Below, one piece after another: positions 13,205-35,650 of a stretch of DNA of 64,000 bases. The notes beneath the pieces were generated by a model that made no database searches, had not been told where the DNA came from, and saw only the letters and a list, made by a program, of their open reading frames with translations. Position 1 is the first letter of the stretch; each line of letters opens with the position of its first letter. A program made the translations under genes and the position numbers. The DNA is from Octopus sinensis. Taxonomy: Eukaryota. The DNA is taken from contig NC_043006.1 of the NCBI RefSeq assembly GCF_006345805.1, positions 11,780,001 through 11,844,000 of the forward strand, in the 5' to 3' direction.

Positions 13205-14497
13205 CCCAGAACCACGCTAATAGCTTGTTATGTTTTCATTATTCTGTGTAAGATCCTTTCTTCTTTATTTAAAGATTCATCCGTTTTCGGGTGAACCACG
13301 CTAATAGCTTTTGAATGAAAATAGCCAATCTAAATATTCTTTTTCAGAAAATGATGGTTAAGGATACAGTTTAAGCCTACATTGTGTATATATTTAACAG
13401 AAAACCATAATAGTATTATAACATTTATTGACATAATGAATTGTTTAGCCACATGAGCAACAAGGAAGAAACGATCCGATTGTCGGACCTCCAAGACTGA
13501 CAGCTAGTGATTTAAGGGATATTGGCCGCGCGTTCAGTGGGAAACCTGGTCAAAGATGTAAAGACATTTTCACTGCCTCCGGACTTCCTCATGTACCAAA
13601 AACCACGCATACTTGGGACAATGGCTTCCGTGCAAGAACCACCAAAACTGCCTCCTCACAGAAGTCTGTGGCTTCATTAGGCCCAAATGTACATGACCTT
13701 AGACATGAGTTGTGTTCTGTTTTTGACGAAACTAACGGGTGGTTAAATGGTTGGGCCTATTTTGGAGATGAACGTCATCGACGTTTATGAGGTCAACAAA
13801 AGGGTGGGGGAGTCATGTTGTGAGATGGTATCATTGTGGACAGACTTTTTGGCCCAGTCAGGGTACCTGCAGAGGTCAAAGTGACCGCAACCGCCTTGCA
13901 TCCCTGCTAGGATGACGTCTGCCACTTCTAAGGAATTTCGTATTCATGCATGAAAAGACTTCTTTACACTCTGCTAGTACCCACCCAAATATTCTTAGGG
14001 CTTTACGGCATACAAGGTGAAAGATTGATGGTGTGACTGCCAGCATCTCCGGATCTCAAGCTTATCGAAAATCTTTGATCTATCATTAAAGAAGATGTTT
14101 AAGCTGATGGACGCCAATTTACGCCGAAAGATGTCTTATGGATGACCATCAAAGCGGCAGCAGAGGCAGTCCAACCTAATATTAAGAAATTGACAGATTC
14201 CATGACTAATAGGGTTTTTGAAGTTATCCGTCGAAATGGCGCTCATGTGGCTAAATAATTCATTATGTCAATAAATGTTATAATATTATTATAATTTCCT
14301 GTTAAATATTTACTCAATGTATGCTTAATGTGTATCATTAGCCTTCGTTTTCTGAAAAAAAATGTCTAGATGGGCTATTTTCTTTTAAAAGGTATTAGCG
14401 TGGTTCATGCAAAAACTGAAGAATCTGAAATACCAAAAAAGAAAGGACACTACACAGAATCATGAAACAATAACAATGGTGCTGACATAGCGTGCAA
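13205..14497 (+). mobile_element. Tc1-family DNA transposon, IR-DR type, internally deleted
   Basis: ~250-bp imperfect TIRs (13205-13458 and 14241-14497). Direct repeat gaaccacgctaatagctt at 13209 and 13293. Transposase remnants GGVML*DGIIVDRLFGPVRVP, FVFMHEK, PASPDLKLIENL*SIIKEDV. Inserted at TA. Confidence 0.88.
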
Positions 14498-17082: not shown

Positions 17083-20000
17083 TATATATTATTTGTTATT
17101 TATATATTGGTTTAAGTTGTATCACTGTTTGAGTTGCATCATACTGGTTTTTTATCTCAATTCATATTTTATATTTTATAAATATATATATATATATTAA
17201 TTATGATATAATATGTTATATTATATTACATATATTATATAATATTATATTATATTGTGTTATATATTACATTATAGCTGAATTCATAAGTATAAAATAT
17301 CACGTCAAAATTGAAAAGCAACAAGAAGAGAAGCTAAACTTTATTATTCACACATATACAAAAAGGAAAAATAGAAATAACATCACGTAGCGAGGTAATC
17401 TAAAGATTTGTAGAAGCATATTTGCTATTGTCAGAATGAATCACCTTTAGTATGCTAATTGTTTTAAGTGAACAAAATATCACTTGAAATCCAAAATGCG
17501 GCAGAGGAATAGCAAAAAACAAGGACTACAAAAAAAAAGCAAAGAAATTATGGAAGAAATATATTTTCCAACACAACAGCCAATTCTTTACTGATCAAAA
17601 GCTGTCTGGAAAAGGACACTGAAGAAACGAATTTCCAAAATCAAACAAAATATTGATGGAAAATATGATTATGTGGAACCAGAGACCATAAATTGTGCCT
17701 TCGTGAATCATAGTCCAATCATATTTCCGTAATGTCCATAATATCGACAAATCAAAAGCAATCCTCAAGGTTGTATTGATTTCTATCATTAGTACATGGC
17801 CGCAAATTTGGTGGGAGGGCATAGCGATTAAATCGATTCTAGATTTTGACTGATAATTATTTTATCGACACGAGAAGGATGAAAGATAGTGTTAACCACC
17901 GTGGCATTTGAACTCATGAAGTAAAGAGACTGACTAAATACCACAAGGCATTTAGATCGTAGCTCTCCGGTTTCAGCCACCCCACCACTGTTTTCGTCAA
18001 ATTATTCTGAAATGAATGAAAGGGGCAGTTTTTATATGCGTTTGGATATTTCTCAAATAAATTTGGTAAAATGATCGAATGCGAAGAACTGGAAAGAAGA
18101 TTTCTTAAATCTTTGCGAATGAAAATATAAAAGATTTCTATGATTAATGGATTGGATTTATATCATTATTTTGAGAACGGTGACGGATTGGCAGAACCAT
18201 TAGGAAAATTCCTTGTAGTATATGCCCCAGTTCGTTACGTTCTGTGTTCAAATCTCATCGATGTTGAATGTGTTCTTAACTTTTCAGGGACGATAACAAA
18301 AAAATTAGTACCGGGATCGATACAATCGACAAGCTGTCGTCTGCTACAAAATTGCTGATTTTGTGCTTAAATTCGAAACAGTTATTTTGGAAATAAGTCG
18401 CGAAAACCCAAACTAATTTGAAATAAGGAACTGAGTCTTCCAACTGTCTTATGATGATACGAAATAAAATCGCGAAGCTACCATTTATATTAAACATTTT
18501 CACACATATGCATAAATCTACATATAGATATATACTATGTATGTATGTATGTATGTATGTATGTATGTATTATGTATGTATGTATGTATTATGTATGTAT
18601 GTATTATGTATGTTTGTATGCATGTATGTATGTTATGTAGTATGTTTGTATGCATGTATGTATGTATGTATGTGTGTATGTATGTTTGTATGTTATGTAT
18701 GTATGTATGTATGTATGTATATGTGTAGGTTTGTATGCTTTGTGTTATGTATGTCTTCTCATGCATATTATTGCATATCTAGACATGCTCATATATATTC
18801 TTTTCTACTCTAGACACAAATCTCGAAATTTTGAGGGAGGAGATCGAAACAGTACGCAACTGGTACTTAGTTTATGGATCCCGAAAGGATGAAAGCCAAA
18901 GTCGACCTGCGGCGAATTTGAACTCAGAACGTAAAGACAGACGAATACCGCAAAGCATTTCGCCCGGCGTGCTAACGTTCTGCCAGCTCACCGCCAAGCA
19001 TGGAGCCCTGGATCTAGGTTAGAAACCGGCTCTTTGTCTATTGTCAAAATCTGAAATAAAACTGAATAATGACGTNNNNNNNNNNNNNNNNNNNNNNNNN
19101 NNNNNNNNNNNNNNNNNNNNNNNNNNNNNNNNNNNNNNNNNNNNNNNNNNNNNNNNNNNNNNNNNNNNNNNNNNNTATATATATTATTTGTTATTTATAT
19201 ATTGGTTTATGTGTATCACTGTTGAGTTGCATCATACTGTTTATCTCCAATTCATATTTTATATTTTATATATATATATATTTTATTATGATATATATGT
19301 TATATTAATTTACATTATATTATATCATTATATTTTTGTGTTATTATATTACATTATAGCTGAATTCATAAGTGATATAAATATCACGTCAGAAAATTGA
19401 AAAGCAACAAGAAAGAGAAGCTAAACTTATTATTCACACATATACAAAAAGGAAAAAATAGAAATAACATCACGTAGCGAGGTAATCTAAAGATTTGTAG
19501 AAGGCATATGTTGCTATTGTCAGAATGAATCACCTTTAGTATGCTATATTGTTTTAAGTGAACAAAATATCACTTGAATCCAAAATGCGGCAGAGGAATA
19601 GCAGAAAACAAGGACTACAAAAAAAAAAGCAAAGAAAATTATGGAAGAAATATATTTCCAAAACAACAGGCAATTCTTTACTGATTCAAAAGCTGTCTGG
19701 AAAAGGAAGCACTGAAGAAACGGAATTTCCAAAATCAAACAAAAATATTGATGGAAAATATGATTATGTGGAACCAGAGACCATAAATTGTGCCTTCGTG
19801 AATCATAGTCCAATCATATTCCGTAATGTCCATAAATATCGACAAATCAAAAGCAATCCTCAAGGTTGTATTGATTTCTATCATTAGTACATGGCCGCAA
19901 ATTTGGTGGGAGGGCATAGCGATTAAATCGATTCTAGATTTTGACTGATAATTATTTTATCGACACGAGAAGGATGAAAGATAGTGTTAACCACCGTGGC

Positions 20001-21173
20001 ATTTGAACTCATGAAGTAAAGAGACTGACTAAATACCACAAGGCATTTAGATCGTAGCTCTCCGGTTTCAGCCACCCCACCACTGTTTTCGTCAAATTAT
20101 TCTGAAATGAATGAAAGGGGCAGTTTTTATATGCGTTTGGATATTTCTCAAATAAATTTGGTAAAATGATCGAATGCGAAGAACTGGAAAGAAGATTTCT
20201 TAAATCTTTGCGAATGAAAATATAAAAGATTTCTATGATTAATGGATTGGATTTATATCATTATTTTGAGAACGGTGACGGATTGGCAGAACCATTAGGA
20301 AAATTCCTTGTAGTATATGCCCCAGTTCGTTACGTTCTGTGTTCAAATCTCATCGATGTTGAATGTGTTCTTAACTTTTCAGGGACGATAACAAAAAAAT
20401 TAGTACCGGGATCGATACAATCGACAAGCTGTCGTCTGCTACAAAATTGCTGATTTTGTGCTTAAATTCGAAACAGTTATTTTGGAAATAAGTCGCGAAA
20501 ACCCAAACTAATTTGAAATAAGGAACTGAGTCTTCCAACTGTCTTATGATGATACGAATAAAATCGCGAAGCTACCATTTATATTAACATTTTCACACAT
20601 ATGCATAAATCTACATATAGATATATACTATGTATGTATGTATGTATGTATGTATGTATGTATTATGTATGTATGTATGTATTATGTATGTATGTATTAT
20701 GTATGTTTGTATGCATGTATGTATGTTATGTATGTATGTTTGTATGCATGTATGTATGTATGTATGTGTGTATGTATGTTTGTATGTTATGTATGTATGT
20801 ATGTATGTATGTATATGTGTAGGTTTGTATGCTTTGTGTTATGTATGTCTTCTCATGCATATTATTGCATATCTAGACATGCTCATATATATTCTTTTCT
20901 ACTCTAGACACAAATCTCGAAATTTTGAGGGAGGAGATCGAAACAGTACGCAACTGGTACTTAGTTTATGGATCCCGAAAGGATGAAAGCCAAAGTCGAC
21001 CTCGGCGGAATTTGAACTCAGAACGTAAAGACAGACGAAATACCGCAAAGCATTTCGCCCGGCGTGCTAACGTTTCTGCCAGCTCACCGCCAAGCATGGA
21101 GCCCTGGATCTAGGTTAGAAACCGGCTCTTTGTCTATTGTCAAAAATCTTGAAATAAAACTGAATAATGACGT
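17083..21173 (+). repeat. ~2-kb direct duplication either side of a 100-N gap
   Basis: 17083-19075 is nearly identical to 19176-21173. Differences are mostly 1-nt indels close to the contig ends. Gap at 19076-19175. Confidence 0.92.
20930..21092 (-). mobile_element. S1 SINE (duplicate copy at ~18835-18995)
   Basis: gaaaggatgaaagccaaagtcgacctcggcggaatttgaactcagaacg...gccagctcaccgcc. Confidence 0.8.
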
Positions 21174-21299: not shown

Positions 21300-21636
21300 T
21301 GCTTATATCTATATGTAGATTTATGCTCATATATATTCAAATGATAAACTTCTGGAAAGTTTTATAGATTTTTATAGTTCCAGTGATGGATTGGATCTGT
21401 AGTCTTCGAATTAGTTTTCTCCGTTGTGGTTTTGAGAGGCCTAATTTCTCAAGATTGATATTGAGACAGTATGTTACTTATACCAGGATCCCAATAATTA
21501 CAGGTATAAACCTGAACTTGTAATTTGGATAAAGCAACTGCAGATTTCTCAATAGTTCAGCGTAGGTATTCTCTTTTTCGCTGATCTTCAGCTTTATGGT
21601 AACAACCACTGGTCAACTGATTTCCACAACTGTATG
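21300..21636 (-). mobile_element. 3' end of Dong/R4-like LINE (restriction-like endonuclease C-terminus)
   Basis: TVVEIS*PVVVTIKLKISEKENTYAELLRNLQLLYPNYKFRFIPVIIGIL...LIRRLQIQSITGTIKIYKTFQKFII*, followed by ATGT repeats. Confidence 0.8.
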
Positions 21637-25463: not shown

Positions 25464-25596
25464 CTCATATACATATAATAATAAAGGGTAAAATTAATTA
25501 ATCAATTAATAATTTTACCAAGTAGTTCGGTATGTTAAAAGAACCATTATCGGTAAAACCTATACAAAAATTCTATAATTATGAGCATAATATATA

Positions 25597-25641
<45 letters not shown>

Positions 25642-25721
25642 GGATGATTTTATTAAAATACCATCACGAGGGGCAAGTGAATTATCAGCCGTACAGGCAA
25701 ATTATTATATACATATAATAT

Positions 25722-26108
25722 AAGATATATACATATTTAAACAAGGGCACTACATGAGTACTTATATCGCTAAAGATAGAGGTAAAAATAATACTCCTGT
25801 GCTACCGAATAATCACAAATCTATTACAGACATGAGAGGAAAATTATCAATGAACAGTACTAACGTCTTACCTATGCTGGATCAGCAGAAGCAAATGCTG
25901 TCTAACTTGGTACTGGTTTCGAAATTTAGCGCCAAATCGGTGCCTGATTTCTCATCAGCCAAAGTCTGCTAGATAACTGATATTGTTTCCTATCATGTCT
26001 GTAATAGATTTGTGACTATTCGGTGGTACAGAAGTATTTTTTGACTTCTACCTTTAGCATTATAAGTACTCATGTAGTACCCTTGTGTATATATGTACAT
26101 ATCTAATA
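25722..26108. repeat. Inverted repeat (~130-bp arms) around a hammerhead motif
   Basis: acaagggcactacatgagtacttata...cacaaatctattacagacatga versus tcatgtctgtaatagatttgtg...tataagtactcatgtagtacccttgt. Confidence 0.85.
25904..25966 (-). ncRNA. Minimal type-I hammerhead ribozyme motif (canonical core)
   Basis: Minus strand reads gactttgg-CTGATGA-gaaat(caggcaccgatttggcgctaa)atttc-GAAA-c-ca-g-TA-ccaagtt. Stem I ttgg/ccaa, stem II gaaat/atttc, very short stem III, GUA triplet. Confidence 0.7.
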
Positions 26109-26146
26109 TTTTATGCATATATTTCACACATATATATATATATATA

Positions 26147-26215
<69 letters not shown>

Positions 26216-26216
26216 T

Positions 26217-26269
<53 letters not shown>

Positions 26270-26799
26270 TAATATATATATATATGCATACATATGAAAT
26301 AAGATTTGAAAATGTAAGCTTTGTATAAGCTTTGTTGTGTTAAGTACTGGTTATCACAAAAGTGTTAAAATACAGTCATACATCCTTTGATAATGATAAG
26401 AAAATGTTAAAAATAGTTTACAAGGAAGTATTCAAGAAACTATTCGAGAACGGGACTAGAATAAGTATTTTGAGTTCAATAAAAATCATGTTTGTTTTTG
26501 TTAGTATATATATATACTACCAAAATATAGTATATATATATACTACCAAAATATACTCCTGTATACAGGAGATATATTTAAGAATTTACAAAAAATTGGA
26601 GTGTAGTAACTGACCTCTCTGCCTGAAATTTTCTGTCTTGTATGAAGCTAAGGAACGTTTGCTATTTTAAGGGATAGTGTGGGAGGTTGGTTGAGGGAGG
26701 AAGGAACGGCAATGTGGAATCAAAAGGATCATTTTGTTTCTGGGCTAGTCTGTCATGGTTCAGTGGTTTTGGGACTGGTCTTGGAAGTCACAATGGTGT

Positions 26800-27990
26800 A
26801 AGTGTGTGTGTGTCCCTGTGCAGGACTCTATGTGAGTGGTGTGTGTCCCCGTGCACGACTCTGTGTGTGTGTGTGTATATATATGTGCTTGTGTTTGTGT
26901 GTGTGGGCCGTTTTTGATTGGTCCCAGTGTTTATTGTGATTTGTGTATATGGGTCTGTGTGTGTTTTATATTTGGTAAGATGGTGTGTGTATATGTATAT
27001 GTGTGCACGTTTGTGTGTGTGTGTGTGTGTGTGATTAGTATTTGTCAGGGTTTTGTGTGTGCGCATGTGTGTGTATGTGTTTGTTCACGTGTATGTGCGT
27101 GTGCGTGTGCGTCTGTGTCTGTGTGTGTATGTTCGTGTGTTTTGCGTTGGTGGGGATGTTACGTGTGTACGTGAGTGTGTTCTTGTCTGAGCATATTTGT
27201 GTTGTTATAATTGTCCTGGTGATGTGTGTGTGAGCAACCGTATGTCTGTGTGAGGGTGCATATGTATGTGTGTGTGTGTGTGTGCGTGTACATTCTGTGC
27301 ATGTTGGTGGTACTGAGTATGCGTTTATGTGTGTTTGTGTGTATATATGTGGGTATGGTTTATGTAGTTTCGAAGTGTGTGTGCTGTATTTGTAAGTGGT
27401 TTGTTTTGTTTGTATTGTTAGTGCAGTGTGTGTGTATACGTGTGGGTGTGTTTGTGTGAGTGTGTCTATGTGTCTTGTATTTGTCGGGGAGGTGTGTGTG
27501 CATGCGTGTGTGTATGTCTGTGTGTTTGTGTGAGTGTTTGTTGGGATTGTATTGTGTGTGTTTTTTTCTTTTGAGTGTGTGCGTGATTTTTACTGGGAAA
27601 CAGGCATATTGTGTTTGCGTGTGGGGGTTGCATAGTATTTGCGTGTTTGTATGTGTATGTGTGGGTGTGTTTGTGTGAGTGTGATTTGTAATAGTCAGGA
27701 TAGTGTGTGTAGGTGTGTGCATGTACGTGTTTACGTATGTGTGTATGTGTGTGAGATTGTGGATTATGGTTGCGAGAATGTACTGCAAGTGTATATATGC
27801 ATGTGTTTTTCTTGGAATGTGTGTGCGTTTGTGCTCAAGTGTGGGGATATTGTGCTTGTGCGTGTGTGTATATGTATGTGTGTGTGTTTGGGTGGGAGGT
27901 TTGCATGGTATTTGTGTTTGTGTGATTTGTACATCTGTATGTATTGTTGTGTGTGTTGGTTGTGGTTGTGTACCTGGGGGCTATGTTAGT
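26800..27990. repeat. 1.2-kb degenerate TG-rich low-complexity tract
   Basis: Cryptic (TG)n with strong strand bias, immediately 3' of the Penelope ORF. Confidence 0.85.
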
Positions 27991-28822
27991 GTATGTTGAG
28001 TTGTGGTCTGTATTTTTGAATAAGATTATTTTTCCTATTTATTCGTGTTTGTTCAGTGATGTTGTCTGGGCATTGCTATACTGAGAAAACTAGGAACCTG
28101 GGGTACTTGTTTTGTGCACAGAGATTTAAGTGACCACTAAGTGGTATCTGTCTTGTAGTGGGGTCCCTGAATTGTTTGCGGTGAACTGGTATCCTTTCTC
28201 GGAGAGTAAGACTTGCTTGTCCTATGTAATCTTTGTGGCACCCTTCACACTTTATGGCACCCTTCACACTTTATGGCATAAAGTAAATTCTTTGATGCGC
28301 AGGTGAAGTTATTTTTTACGACAAAAGTGTGTCCTGACTGGAATTTGTATATTGTTCCTTCCTGAAATTGGAACTACCACATTTTTTGACGGTGGGTGGT
28401 GGGCTTGTCTTGGATAATTTTGAATTGGTGAGTAGGCTTTTTAGTGATTTAGGTTGTCTTTTGCTTTTTATTATTTTATGGGTTTCGAGTACCTTTTTAG
28501 ACGTGGCTTTTGACTCAGTAGTGGGATGTTCTTGTATATAATTGTGTAAGCTTCTGCATTTCTTGGATCGTGTATTGAGAGATATGGGAGACTATTTAAT
28601 GTACCGTGAGTGTGCTTCACTTTTCGTAAGTCTTGGGTAGCGATTGTCTTAACCCGTTCTATTCCATTGTCAATTAATGATGCTGAGTAATGTCTTTCGA
28701 GGAGAATTGCCATCCTTTAGTTTTTGCAGTCTTTTATTTCACGTTCTATAATTTGAGACAATTGTACAGATTCTTCTTGCTAGGATGAAGGAGATGTTTG
28801 TCTTTGTGTGCTTTGGGTAATT
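27990..28822 (-). mobile_element. Penelope-like retroelement 3' fragment (RT thumb/linker plus GIY-YIG endonuclease), pseudogenised
   Basis: Stitched frames give HTKTNISFILARRICTIVS...LLERHYSASLIDNGIER...SKRQPKSLKSLLT...NNFTCASKNLLYAIKCEGCHKDYIGQASLTLRERIPVHRKQ...NLIQKYRPQLN. Stops and frameshifts are present, plus a 19-bp tandem duplication at 28236-28273. Confidence 0.88.
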
Positions 28823-31644: not shown

Positions 31645-31852
31645 TACATAGTTAATCCAAACATGAACAGGGGGAAAACCGAACAACGCGAGGACGTGGA
31701 ACATATATACTGTTATTGGACGCCCAGGAAAGGAAAGTAAGGAGAAGAATTTAACGTTTCGAACGGAGCTCTTCATCAGAAACATAGAAAAAGGAAAGGT
31801 CCAAGGAAGGGAAGACGGAGAAAGAAAATCGCCAACGATACACACGTGGTCA
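31645..31852 (-). mobile_element. Family A element
   Basis: Reverse-complement homolog of 5775-5960, flanked by TA repeats. Confidence 0.75.
31749..31783 (-). ncRNA. Hammerhead-like motif (family A) inside a ~210-bp TA-embedded element
   Basis: gttt-CTGATGA-A-gagc(tcc)gttc-GAAA-cg-TT-aaat, with palindromic AACGTT in place of stem III. Confidence 0.55.
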
Positions 31853-35450: not shown

Positions 35451-35650
35451 ACTCATCATATCTATACCATTTGTATATGACCAGGTATGTTGGAATGATT
35501 CTTGCAGTCTATTCGCCAAGGATTTTGGTAAATGGTGAAAGTTGATAAATTCTTTGATACTTTCTGTTTTTTCATTATATTCTTCTGTTCCTTGATAGAG
35601 CCGTAACATTATTGAAGACACATTACCGAATATAGCGGCACTCAGCAATG
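35451..35650 (-). CDS. Internal coding exon of an Erg-type (KCNH2/6/7-like) voltage-gated K+ channel: end of S6 plus C-linker
   Basis: Translates to (A)LLSAAIFGNVSSIMLRLYQGTEEYNEKTESIKEFINFHHLPKSLANRLQESFQHTWSYTNGIDMMS, which aligns without gaps to hERG [21 protein letters not shown]...YFQHAWSYTNGIDMNA. Acceptor ccttttaatAG at 35652-35651, donor GTAAGT at 35450-35445. Length 200 bp, phase 1 to phase 0, matching my recollection of the equivalent hERG exon 8. Confidence 0.95.

What the first reader, a model, noticed from the sequence alone, without database searches (positions are those of the whole stretch)
25722..26108. Canonical hammerhead core placed in the loop of a 130-bp-arm fold-back element
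The minus strand 25904-25966 has intact CUGAUGA/GAAA/GUA boxes, a G-C-closed stem II and stem I, enclosed by diverged long inverted arms and (TA)n flanks. It lies on the same strand as the KCNH exon, so it would be transcribed in the pre-mRNA. Stem III ACCAGT looks like a mutated palindrome ACCGGT (inference). Cleavage would nick the loop of a long dsRNA hairpin.
Basis: partly seen in the sequence, partly recalled or inferred. Interest (0 to 1): 0.75.

Follow-up and report, generated by a model that had tools for sequence, protein, structure and literature searches.

The report
Decayed retrozyme copy, Penelope-style inverted insertion
This is one worn copy of a scattered, protein-free repeat that carries a hammerhead ribozyme motif; its long hairpin is likely a by-product of how Penelope-type jumping-gene enzymes paste DNA in, and the lone ribozyme is predicted to cut the host ion-channel RNA poorly or not at all.

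Summary
In detail: an intact type I hammerhead core (minus 25958-25911) sits between ~145-bp inverted arms, sense within a ~60-kb KCNH intron. The ACCGGT guess is right: 68 of 91 genomic core matches have it; ACCAGT is CpG decay. The interpretation mostly fails. The element is one of hundreds of copies of an ORF-less 446-nt unit, and it ends at 25642, not 25722. The hairpin is not a fixed design: 21 of 51 loci have an inverted 5'-truncated copy, with different junctions, the published Penelope-like (PLE) footprint. This copy's ribozyme arm is the most diverged of 62 long segments (13%). It lacks the palindrome needed for dimer cleavage (-0.2 versus -10.3 kcal/mol) and has no partner nearby. 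The core is not conserved above background in an unbiased sample. One point of interest: copies end at two fixed sites ~70 nt apart, and the two arms of an insertion use opposite sites in 14 of 16 loci and share rare alleles. This suggests one two-strand priming event. No two-ribozyme tandem, circular RNA or partner PLE was found. New member of a known kind.

The parts
25642..25976 (-). Sense copy of the 446-nt unit (unit positions 103-442), 5'-truncated just upstream of the ribozyme; 13.2% from the family majority
25976..26124 (+). Inverted, 5'-truncated second copy (unit positions 228-376) ending at 3' site A; 6% from the family majority; forms the other hairpin arm
25903..25966 (-). Type I hammerhead motif: proximal stem I 25966-25959/25910-25903, CUGAUGA 25958-25952, stem II 25951-25921, GAAA 25920-25917, predicted cut 25911/25910; the family's distal stem I helix is altered here
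25912..25917 (-). Helix III/loop 3 ACCAGT, a CpG-decay variant of the family palindrome ACCGGT
   Evidence: 68 ACCGGT, 6 ACTGGT, 6 ACCAGT, 11 other, of 91; tallied by hand
25642..25704 (-). One-sided tail between 3' site A (unit ~374) and site B (unit 446), ending in a 9-bp family stem-loop that is damaged here (25665-25643)
25595..25639 (.). (TA)n run at the sense 3' end; likely target site
26130..26290 (.). (TA)n run at the inverted arm's 3' end; likely target site, no duplication discernible
35451..35650 (-). Host KCNH2-like exon (S6/C-linker) upstream of the ~60.4-kb intron that holds the element

Best explanation
This is a decayed copy of a dispersed, ORF-less 446-nt hammerhead-bearing repeat (retrozyme-like), likely pasted into a (TA)n run by a borrowed Penelope-like reverse transcriptase/endonuclease, and the fold-back is likely the footprint of that single insertion, not a selected RNA device. 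Shown: the family, the unit length, head-to-tail partial tandems, inverted 5'-truncated arms with variable junctions, two fixed 3' ends, (TA)n flanks, and decay of this copy. Inferred mechanism: the enzyme nicks both strands in the TA run. One nick primes copying from site B (unit 446) and the other from site A (unit ~374) of the same RNA or same source lineage. The two cDNAs stop early and are joined head to head, giving two arms and a tail on one side only. In source elements the ribozyme likely cleaves as a dimer through the ACCGGT palindrome, to release or circularise the unit. Here it is alone and has lost the palindrome, so it is predicted to be inactive or nearly so; its likely only effect is a ~145-bp duplex in KCNH pre-mRNA.
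For: Family: 619 and 947 first-look candidates; 91 exact core matches vs 0 control. Unit 446 nt with its own 3' end directly upstream in 16 of 51 loci. Inverted arms in 21 of 51 loci, and 12 of 28 places in the set picked by the core pattern alone, with different junctions. 3' ends of main segments cluster at unit 357-383 and 438-446 and mostly run into (TA)n. Arms use opposite ends in 14 of 16 classifiable loci (p 0.002). In a set anchored on site B, 4 of 6 inverted arms end at A, 2 are unclassifiable, 0 end at B. Arms of one locus share rare alleles (0.0076/site vs 0.0018 permuted, p 0.0005; still p 0.001 without L007). PMC8557442 describes partial tandems, an adjacent inverted 5'-truncated copy, a tail at one end and microsatellite bias as PLE features. 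PMC11167929 shows a PLE protein cleaving and extending both strands, starting at two internal sites, without needing ribozyme cleavage. Decay: most diverged of 62 long segments, 13.2% vs median 5.8%; dimer helix -0.2 vs -10.3 kcal/mol; core not conserved above background in the unbiased set, 4/143 vs 63/1415, p 0.51. An abundant RT + GIY-YIG-like element with open frames up to 776 aa exists in G000.
Against: No sequence link to an autonomous PLE: only an 18-nt match, BLAST E 0.77, reached by 4 of 300 shuffles; only one PLE family was examined. No locus with two ribozymes in direct tandem was found (0 of 19 hits belonged to the family; exact pattern only), so the source element is unseen. The tail is ~70 nt, against 30-40 in the literature. 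One locus (L019) has both arms at site B, and 5 of 21 two-armed loci could not be classed. Sites A and B are AT-rich, so ends blur into (TA)n, and L010 shows a TA expansion at site A with the tail beyond it. All 13 core positions are intact in this copy (chance 0.16 at its divergence). Its local hammerhead fold is not worse than that of typical copies (4.6 kcal/mol above the ensemble; range 2.1-11.3). A trans dimer with another copy's RNA is possible on paper (-4.1 with ACCGGT, -8.8 with ACTGGT).
Confidence: 0.85

Rival explanations
1. The copy has been co-opted: the ribozyme cuts, or the hairpin is edited or processed, in KCNH pre-mRNA and so tunes channel expression.
For: Sense and intronic. 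All 13 core positions intact. Arm mismatches include 8 G-U vs 3 A-C on the transcribed strand. Changes here create an alternative 6-bp helix extending stem I.
Against: The G-U excess is not significant (p 0.23) and an intact core is expected 16% of the time. It is the most diverged copy sampled. In the whole-element fold the stem I pair probability is 0.06-0.09 and the core is mostly paired. No cis partner.
Confidence: 0.06
2. Two independent insertions of the same family landed head to head in one (TA)n hot spot.
For: The arms here differ at 20 of 143 sites, and the sense arm is about twice as diverged (18 vs 9 changes).
Against: The asymmetry is not significant (15 vs 6 private changes, p 0.08). 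Across 18 arm pairs, rare alleles and diagnostic sites (95/122 vs 0.52 permuted) are shared beyond chance, and A/B usage is opposite. About 40% of sampled loci are two-armed.
Confidence: 0.05
3. A MITE or fold-back DNA transposon with terminal inverted repeats that captured a ribozyme and moves as a unit into TA sites.
For: Long inverted arms and TA flanks.
Against: Arm length and junction differ at every locus, 30 of 51 loci have no arm, 5' ends are scattered while 3' ends are fixed, and partial tandems occur.
Confidence: 0.02

Closest known systems
Metazoan non-LTR retrozymes (PMC7229834, passages seen; bioRxiv 10.64898/2026.07.22.740005, parts 1-2 of 5 read)
   Same: ORF-less unit of a few hundred nt with one type I hammerhead, short palindromic helix III as in amphibian elements, dispersed monomers, proposed PLE origin.
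   Different: Only partial tandems were found here, no two-ribozyme dimer, so no locus meets that preprint's 'active' definition; 446 nt is above the 170-400 nt of the 2020 paper; circular RNA not shown.
Penelope-like element insertions and pLTR hammerheads (PMC8557442, passages seen; PMC4209133, parts 1-2 of 4 read)
   Same: Partial tandem, inverted 5'-truncated copy at the 5' end, tail on one end, microsatellite targets, ribozyme pairs on opposite strands a few hundred bp apart.
   Different: No RT/GIY-YIG ORF in or next to the unit; tail ~70 nt instead of 30-40; ribozyme has an extended stem I and II and no bulge between positions 9 and 10.1.
Anolis Poseidon PAc in vitro system (PMC11167929, parts 1-2 of 4 read)
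   Same: Two internal reverse-transcription start sites delimiting a tail, AT-rich targets, both strands cleaved and extended, ribozyme inactive alone.
   Different: PAc is autonomous and its start sites lie in an AC-rich stem-loop inside the ORF; the parts read report no strand difference in start site, whereas the arms here use opposite sites.

Membership tests
Type I hammerhead ribozyme | Core CUGANGA, GAAA, NUH and G10.1-C11.1 pair | tested here: met
Type I hammerhead ribozyme | Stems I and II can form around the core | tested here: met
   constrained fold 4.6 kcal/mol above the ensemble locally, 5.5 in the whole element; not the lowest-energy fold
Type I hammerhead ribozyme | Stable helix III, or a palindrome allowing a dimer helix III | tested here: not met
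   This copy: 2 bp, self-dimer -0.2 kcal/mol. The family meets it in 68 of 91 matches.
Type I hammerhead ribozyme | Match to an Rfam hammerhead model | tested here: not met
   (no hammerhead row at E<=10)
Type I hammerhead ribozyme | Self-cleavage; loop 1-loop 2 tertiary contact | not testable with these tools
   needs an in vitro assay
Metazoan non-LTR retrozyme | Short non-coding unit with one type I hammerhead, dispersed in many copies | tested here: met
Metazoan non-LTR retrozyme | Head-to-tail repeats with at least two complete ribozymes | tested here: not met
   (exact pattern, 0 of 19 hits from this family); no direct pair among 91 matches; only partial tandems, the longest from unit 196. 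Diverged or collapsed arrays would be missed.
Metazoan non-LTR retrozyme | Expressed as linear and circular monomer RNA | tested here: inconclusive
   only assembled contigs of runs whose RNA status is a guess
Penelope-like element (autonomous) | ORF with RT and GIY-YIG endonuclease | tested here: not met
   no such ORF in the unit or reported in the flanks of 60 loci
PLE-type insertion | Partial tandem plus inverted 5'-truncated copy | tested here: met
   16 and 21 of 51 loci (one duplicate row dropped)
PLE-type insertion | Tail at one end only; microsatellite targets | tested here: met
   tail ~70 nt, longer than described
PLE-type insertion | Sequence shared with an autonomous partner's pLTR | tested here: inconclusive
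   none found with the one family examined
MITE / fold-back DNA transposon | Fixed terminal inverted repeats shared by copies | tested here: not met

The most novel reading that the evidence does not exclude
Two-armed insertions of this family record one event in which a PLE enzyme primes both DNA strands from two different fixed start sites (A and B) on the same RNA. That single rule would explain both the inverted repeats and the one-sided 'tail' of Penelope-like insertions, and this small ORF-less unit would be a minimal substrate to test it.
Probability: 0.5. Interest if true: 0.55.

Novelty: new member of a known kind. Interest (0 to 1): 0.3.

Why it matters
The locus itself is ordinary: a worn mobile-element copy in a long intron. 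The family has modest value. PMC8557442 names the formation of tandem/inverted PLE structures as an open mechanistic question, and the opposite use of two fixed start sites by the two arms gives a concrete prediction for the existing in vitro PLE assay. It also warns that ribozyme-in-hairpin motifs in this genome are a common insertion footprint; the scan already holds similar notes for other families here.

Tried and rejected
Rfam scans: no hammerhead match. Search for a two-ribozyme direct tandem: 19 hits, all an unrelated satellite. Apparent strong conservation of the core (4/420 vs 535/9486) was rejected as ascertainment bias after the unbiased set showed none. Link to the PLE fragment 2 kb away or to its family: no shared DNA. 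Copies starting at unit 232 did not lead into an autonomous element; three are one segmental duplication. A-to-I editing footprint in the family: no A>G excess (77/6498 vs T>C 151/9657). Pfam scan of 196 window reading frames missed the KCNH exon, which was found by eye and by PDB search. The cNMP-domain genome search did not list this gene. Expression: no RNA holder listed. Contigs of 3 of 4 guessed-RNA runs carry family fragments, one with an opposite-strand joint like the genomic two-armed copies, but contigs cannot show strand, ends or circles. Locus-specific coverage and presence in related organisms remain untested. Paper search for 'hammerhead ribozyme' with 'octopus'/'cephalopod' listed only PMC8557442 with the ribozyme term among the 20 rows shown of 2,558; supplements were not read, so a listing of this family there or in Repbase/Dfam is not excluded.

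Full report
Observation. The window is G000:C10:11780001-11844000 of a 2.72-Gb animal genome; an earlier scan note calls it an octopus, which I did not test. The hammerhead core, stem II with G-C closure, proximal stem I and the predicted cut at 25911/25910 are as described. The arms are ~145-149 bp, 123 of 143 positions Watson-Crick plus 8 G-U. A KCNH2-like exon lies at minus 35650-35451, and the next two exons were found beyond the window at C10:11,755,051 and about 11,739,800. The element is therefore sense in an intron of about 60.4 kb. Rfam does not recognise the motif.

Family. A DNA search gave 619 candidates (40 scored), and a search with the 3' half gave 947 (40 scored); these are lower-bound indications, not copy numbers. 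An exact core pattern gave 91 matches against 0 for the control. By hand tally, helix III reads ACCGGT in 68, ACTGGT in 6, ACCAGT in 6 and something else in 11. The equal C>T and G>A classes are what CpG deamination on either strand gives (established knowledge). Using the real locus L030 as reference, the unit is 446 nt with the core at position 121. Where sequence continues upstream of position 1 it is the unit's own 3' end, so the unit is head-to-tail and has no ORF.

Anatomy. Of 60 loci duplicates were dropped before and one more (L044) after, leaving 51. Of these 21 have an inverted copy at the 5' side and 16 a direct partial copy. The one search set is biased towards arms, but the set picked by the core alone gives 12 of 28 places. 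Junctions differ between loci and 5' starts are scattered, while 3' ends cluster at unit ~374 (site A) and 446 (site B), mostly running into (TA)n. The window copy is inverted 228-376 joined to sense 103-442, so it spans 25642-26124 with a tail on one side. PMC8557442 (passages, Fig. 2 legend) describes this arrangement for PLEs.

Two start sites. Of 21 two-armed loci 16 were classifiable and 14 use opposite sites (8 B/A, 6 A/B, 1 B/B, 1 A/A; p 0.002 against one half). The A/A case continues past a deletion into tail sequence on inspection. Three ends counted as B (unit 415, 415, 433) pass site A but stop short of 446. In 29 loci anchored on site B, 6 have an inverted arm: 4 end at A (one is a place already counted), 2 are unclassifiable, none ends at B. 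Arms of one locus share rare alleles four times more often than permuted pairs (23 alleles, p 0.0005; 16 and p 0.001 without L007, whose arms are identical) and agree at 95 of 122 diagnostic sites vs 0.52 expected. This favours one event, but cannot separate one RNA molecule from one source lineage. PMC11167929 shows a PLE protein cleaving and extending both strands from two internal start sites; the two-strand, two-site model here is my inference from that.

Is this ribozyme active? PMC4209133 states that a 1-2 bp helix III impedes monomer cleavage and that a nearby second copy allows an active dimer. The family palindrome gives a 6-bp duplex of -10.3 kcal/mol; this copy gives -0.2 with itself, and -4.1 or -8.8 with other variants in trans. 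No other copy lies in the window or the 120 kb downstream. The sense arm is the most diverged of 62 long segments, 13.2% against a median of 5.8%. In the whole element the stem I probability is 0.06-0.09. Against my reading: the core is fully intact, and the local fold is no worse than in typical copies, since the model cannot score the 2-nt loop. An intact core is expected by chance 16% of the time, and the copy was noticed because of it. Family-wide, the core looked conserved in the query-selected set but not in the set chosen by the 3' half (4/143 vs 63/1415, p 0.51), where only 11 of 29 loci contain the ribozyme; that sample is small.

Partner and expression. G000 holds a very abundant element with an RT domain (PF00078) and, by recalled motifs, a CxxC linker and GIY-YIG endonuclease of the Neptune type (9,401 candidates; frames up to 776 aa). 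A broken fragment of it lies 2 kb from the finding, but it shares no convincing DNA with the unit, so the mobilising enzyme is unidentified. No two-ribozyme tandem was found.

Verdict. It works like a non-autonomous PLE passenger and resembles metazoan non-LTR retrozymes, but fails their two-ribozyme tandem criterion on present evidence, so I file it as retrozyme-like. The locus is a decayed copy; the hairpin is an insertion footprint. Papers: PMC8557442 and PMC7229834 passages only; PMC11167929 and PMC4209133 parts 1-2 of 4; bioRxiv 10.64898/2026.07.22.740005 parts 1-2 of 5; no supplements seen.

Noticed in passing
window 27990-28800, minus: Broken fragment of an abundant Penelope-like element (RT C-terminal part and GIY-YIG-like endonuclease, with stops and frameshifts), followed by a (CA)-rich tract; 9,401 candidates in G000.
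   Followed up: partly
window 31753-31779, minus: A second, minimal hammerhead-like core inside a different ~220-bp dispersed repeat that is also present in L024, L041, L116, L125 and L144.
   Followed up: partly
window 17600-19050 and 19700-21150: Near-identical ~1.4-kb segments on both sides of the 100-N gap at 19076-19175 (identical translations); likely an assembly overlap.
   Followed up: no
L007:1482-1968 (oriented), G000:C14:56934312-56934679: Two-armed copy whose arms are identical over 180 nt while 5% from the family majority; the inversion removed the first half of the ribozyme. Gene conversion, a recent event or an assembly artefact.
   Followed up: no
window 21481-21612 minus; 14103-14255 plus: Short frames resembling, from recall, a restriction-like endonuclease of a non-LTR element and a Tc1-type transposase end; untested.
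   Followed up: no
family unit positions 419-441 (window 25665-25643): A 9-bp stem-loop sits directly before 3' site B in the family; candidate enzyme-recognition signal, damaged in this copy.
   Followed up: partly
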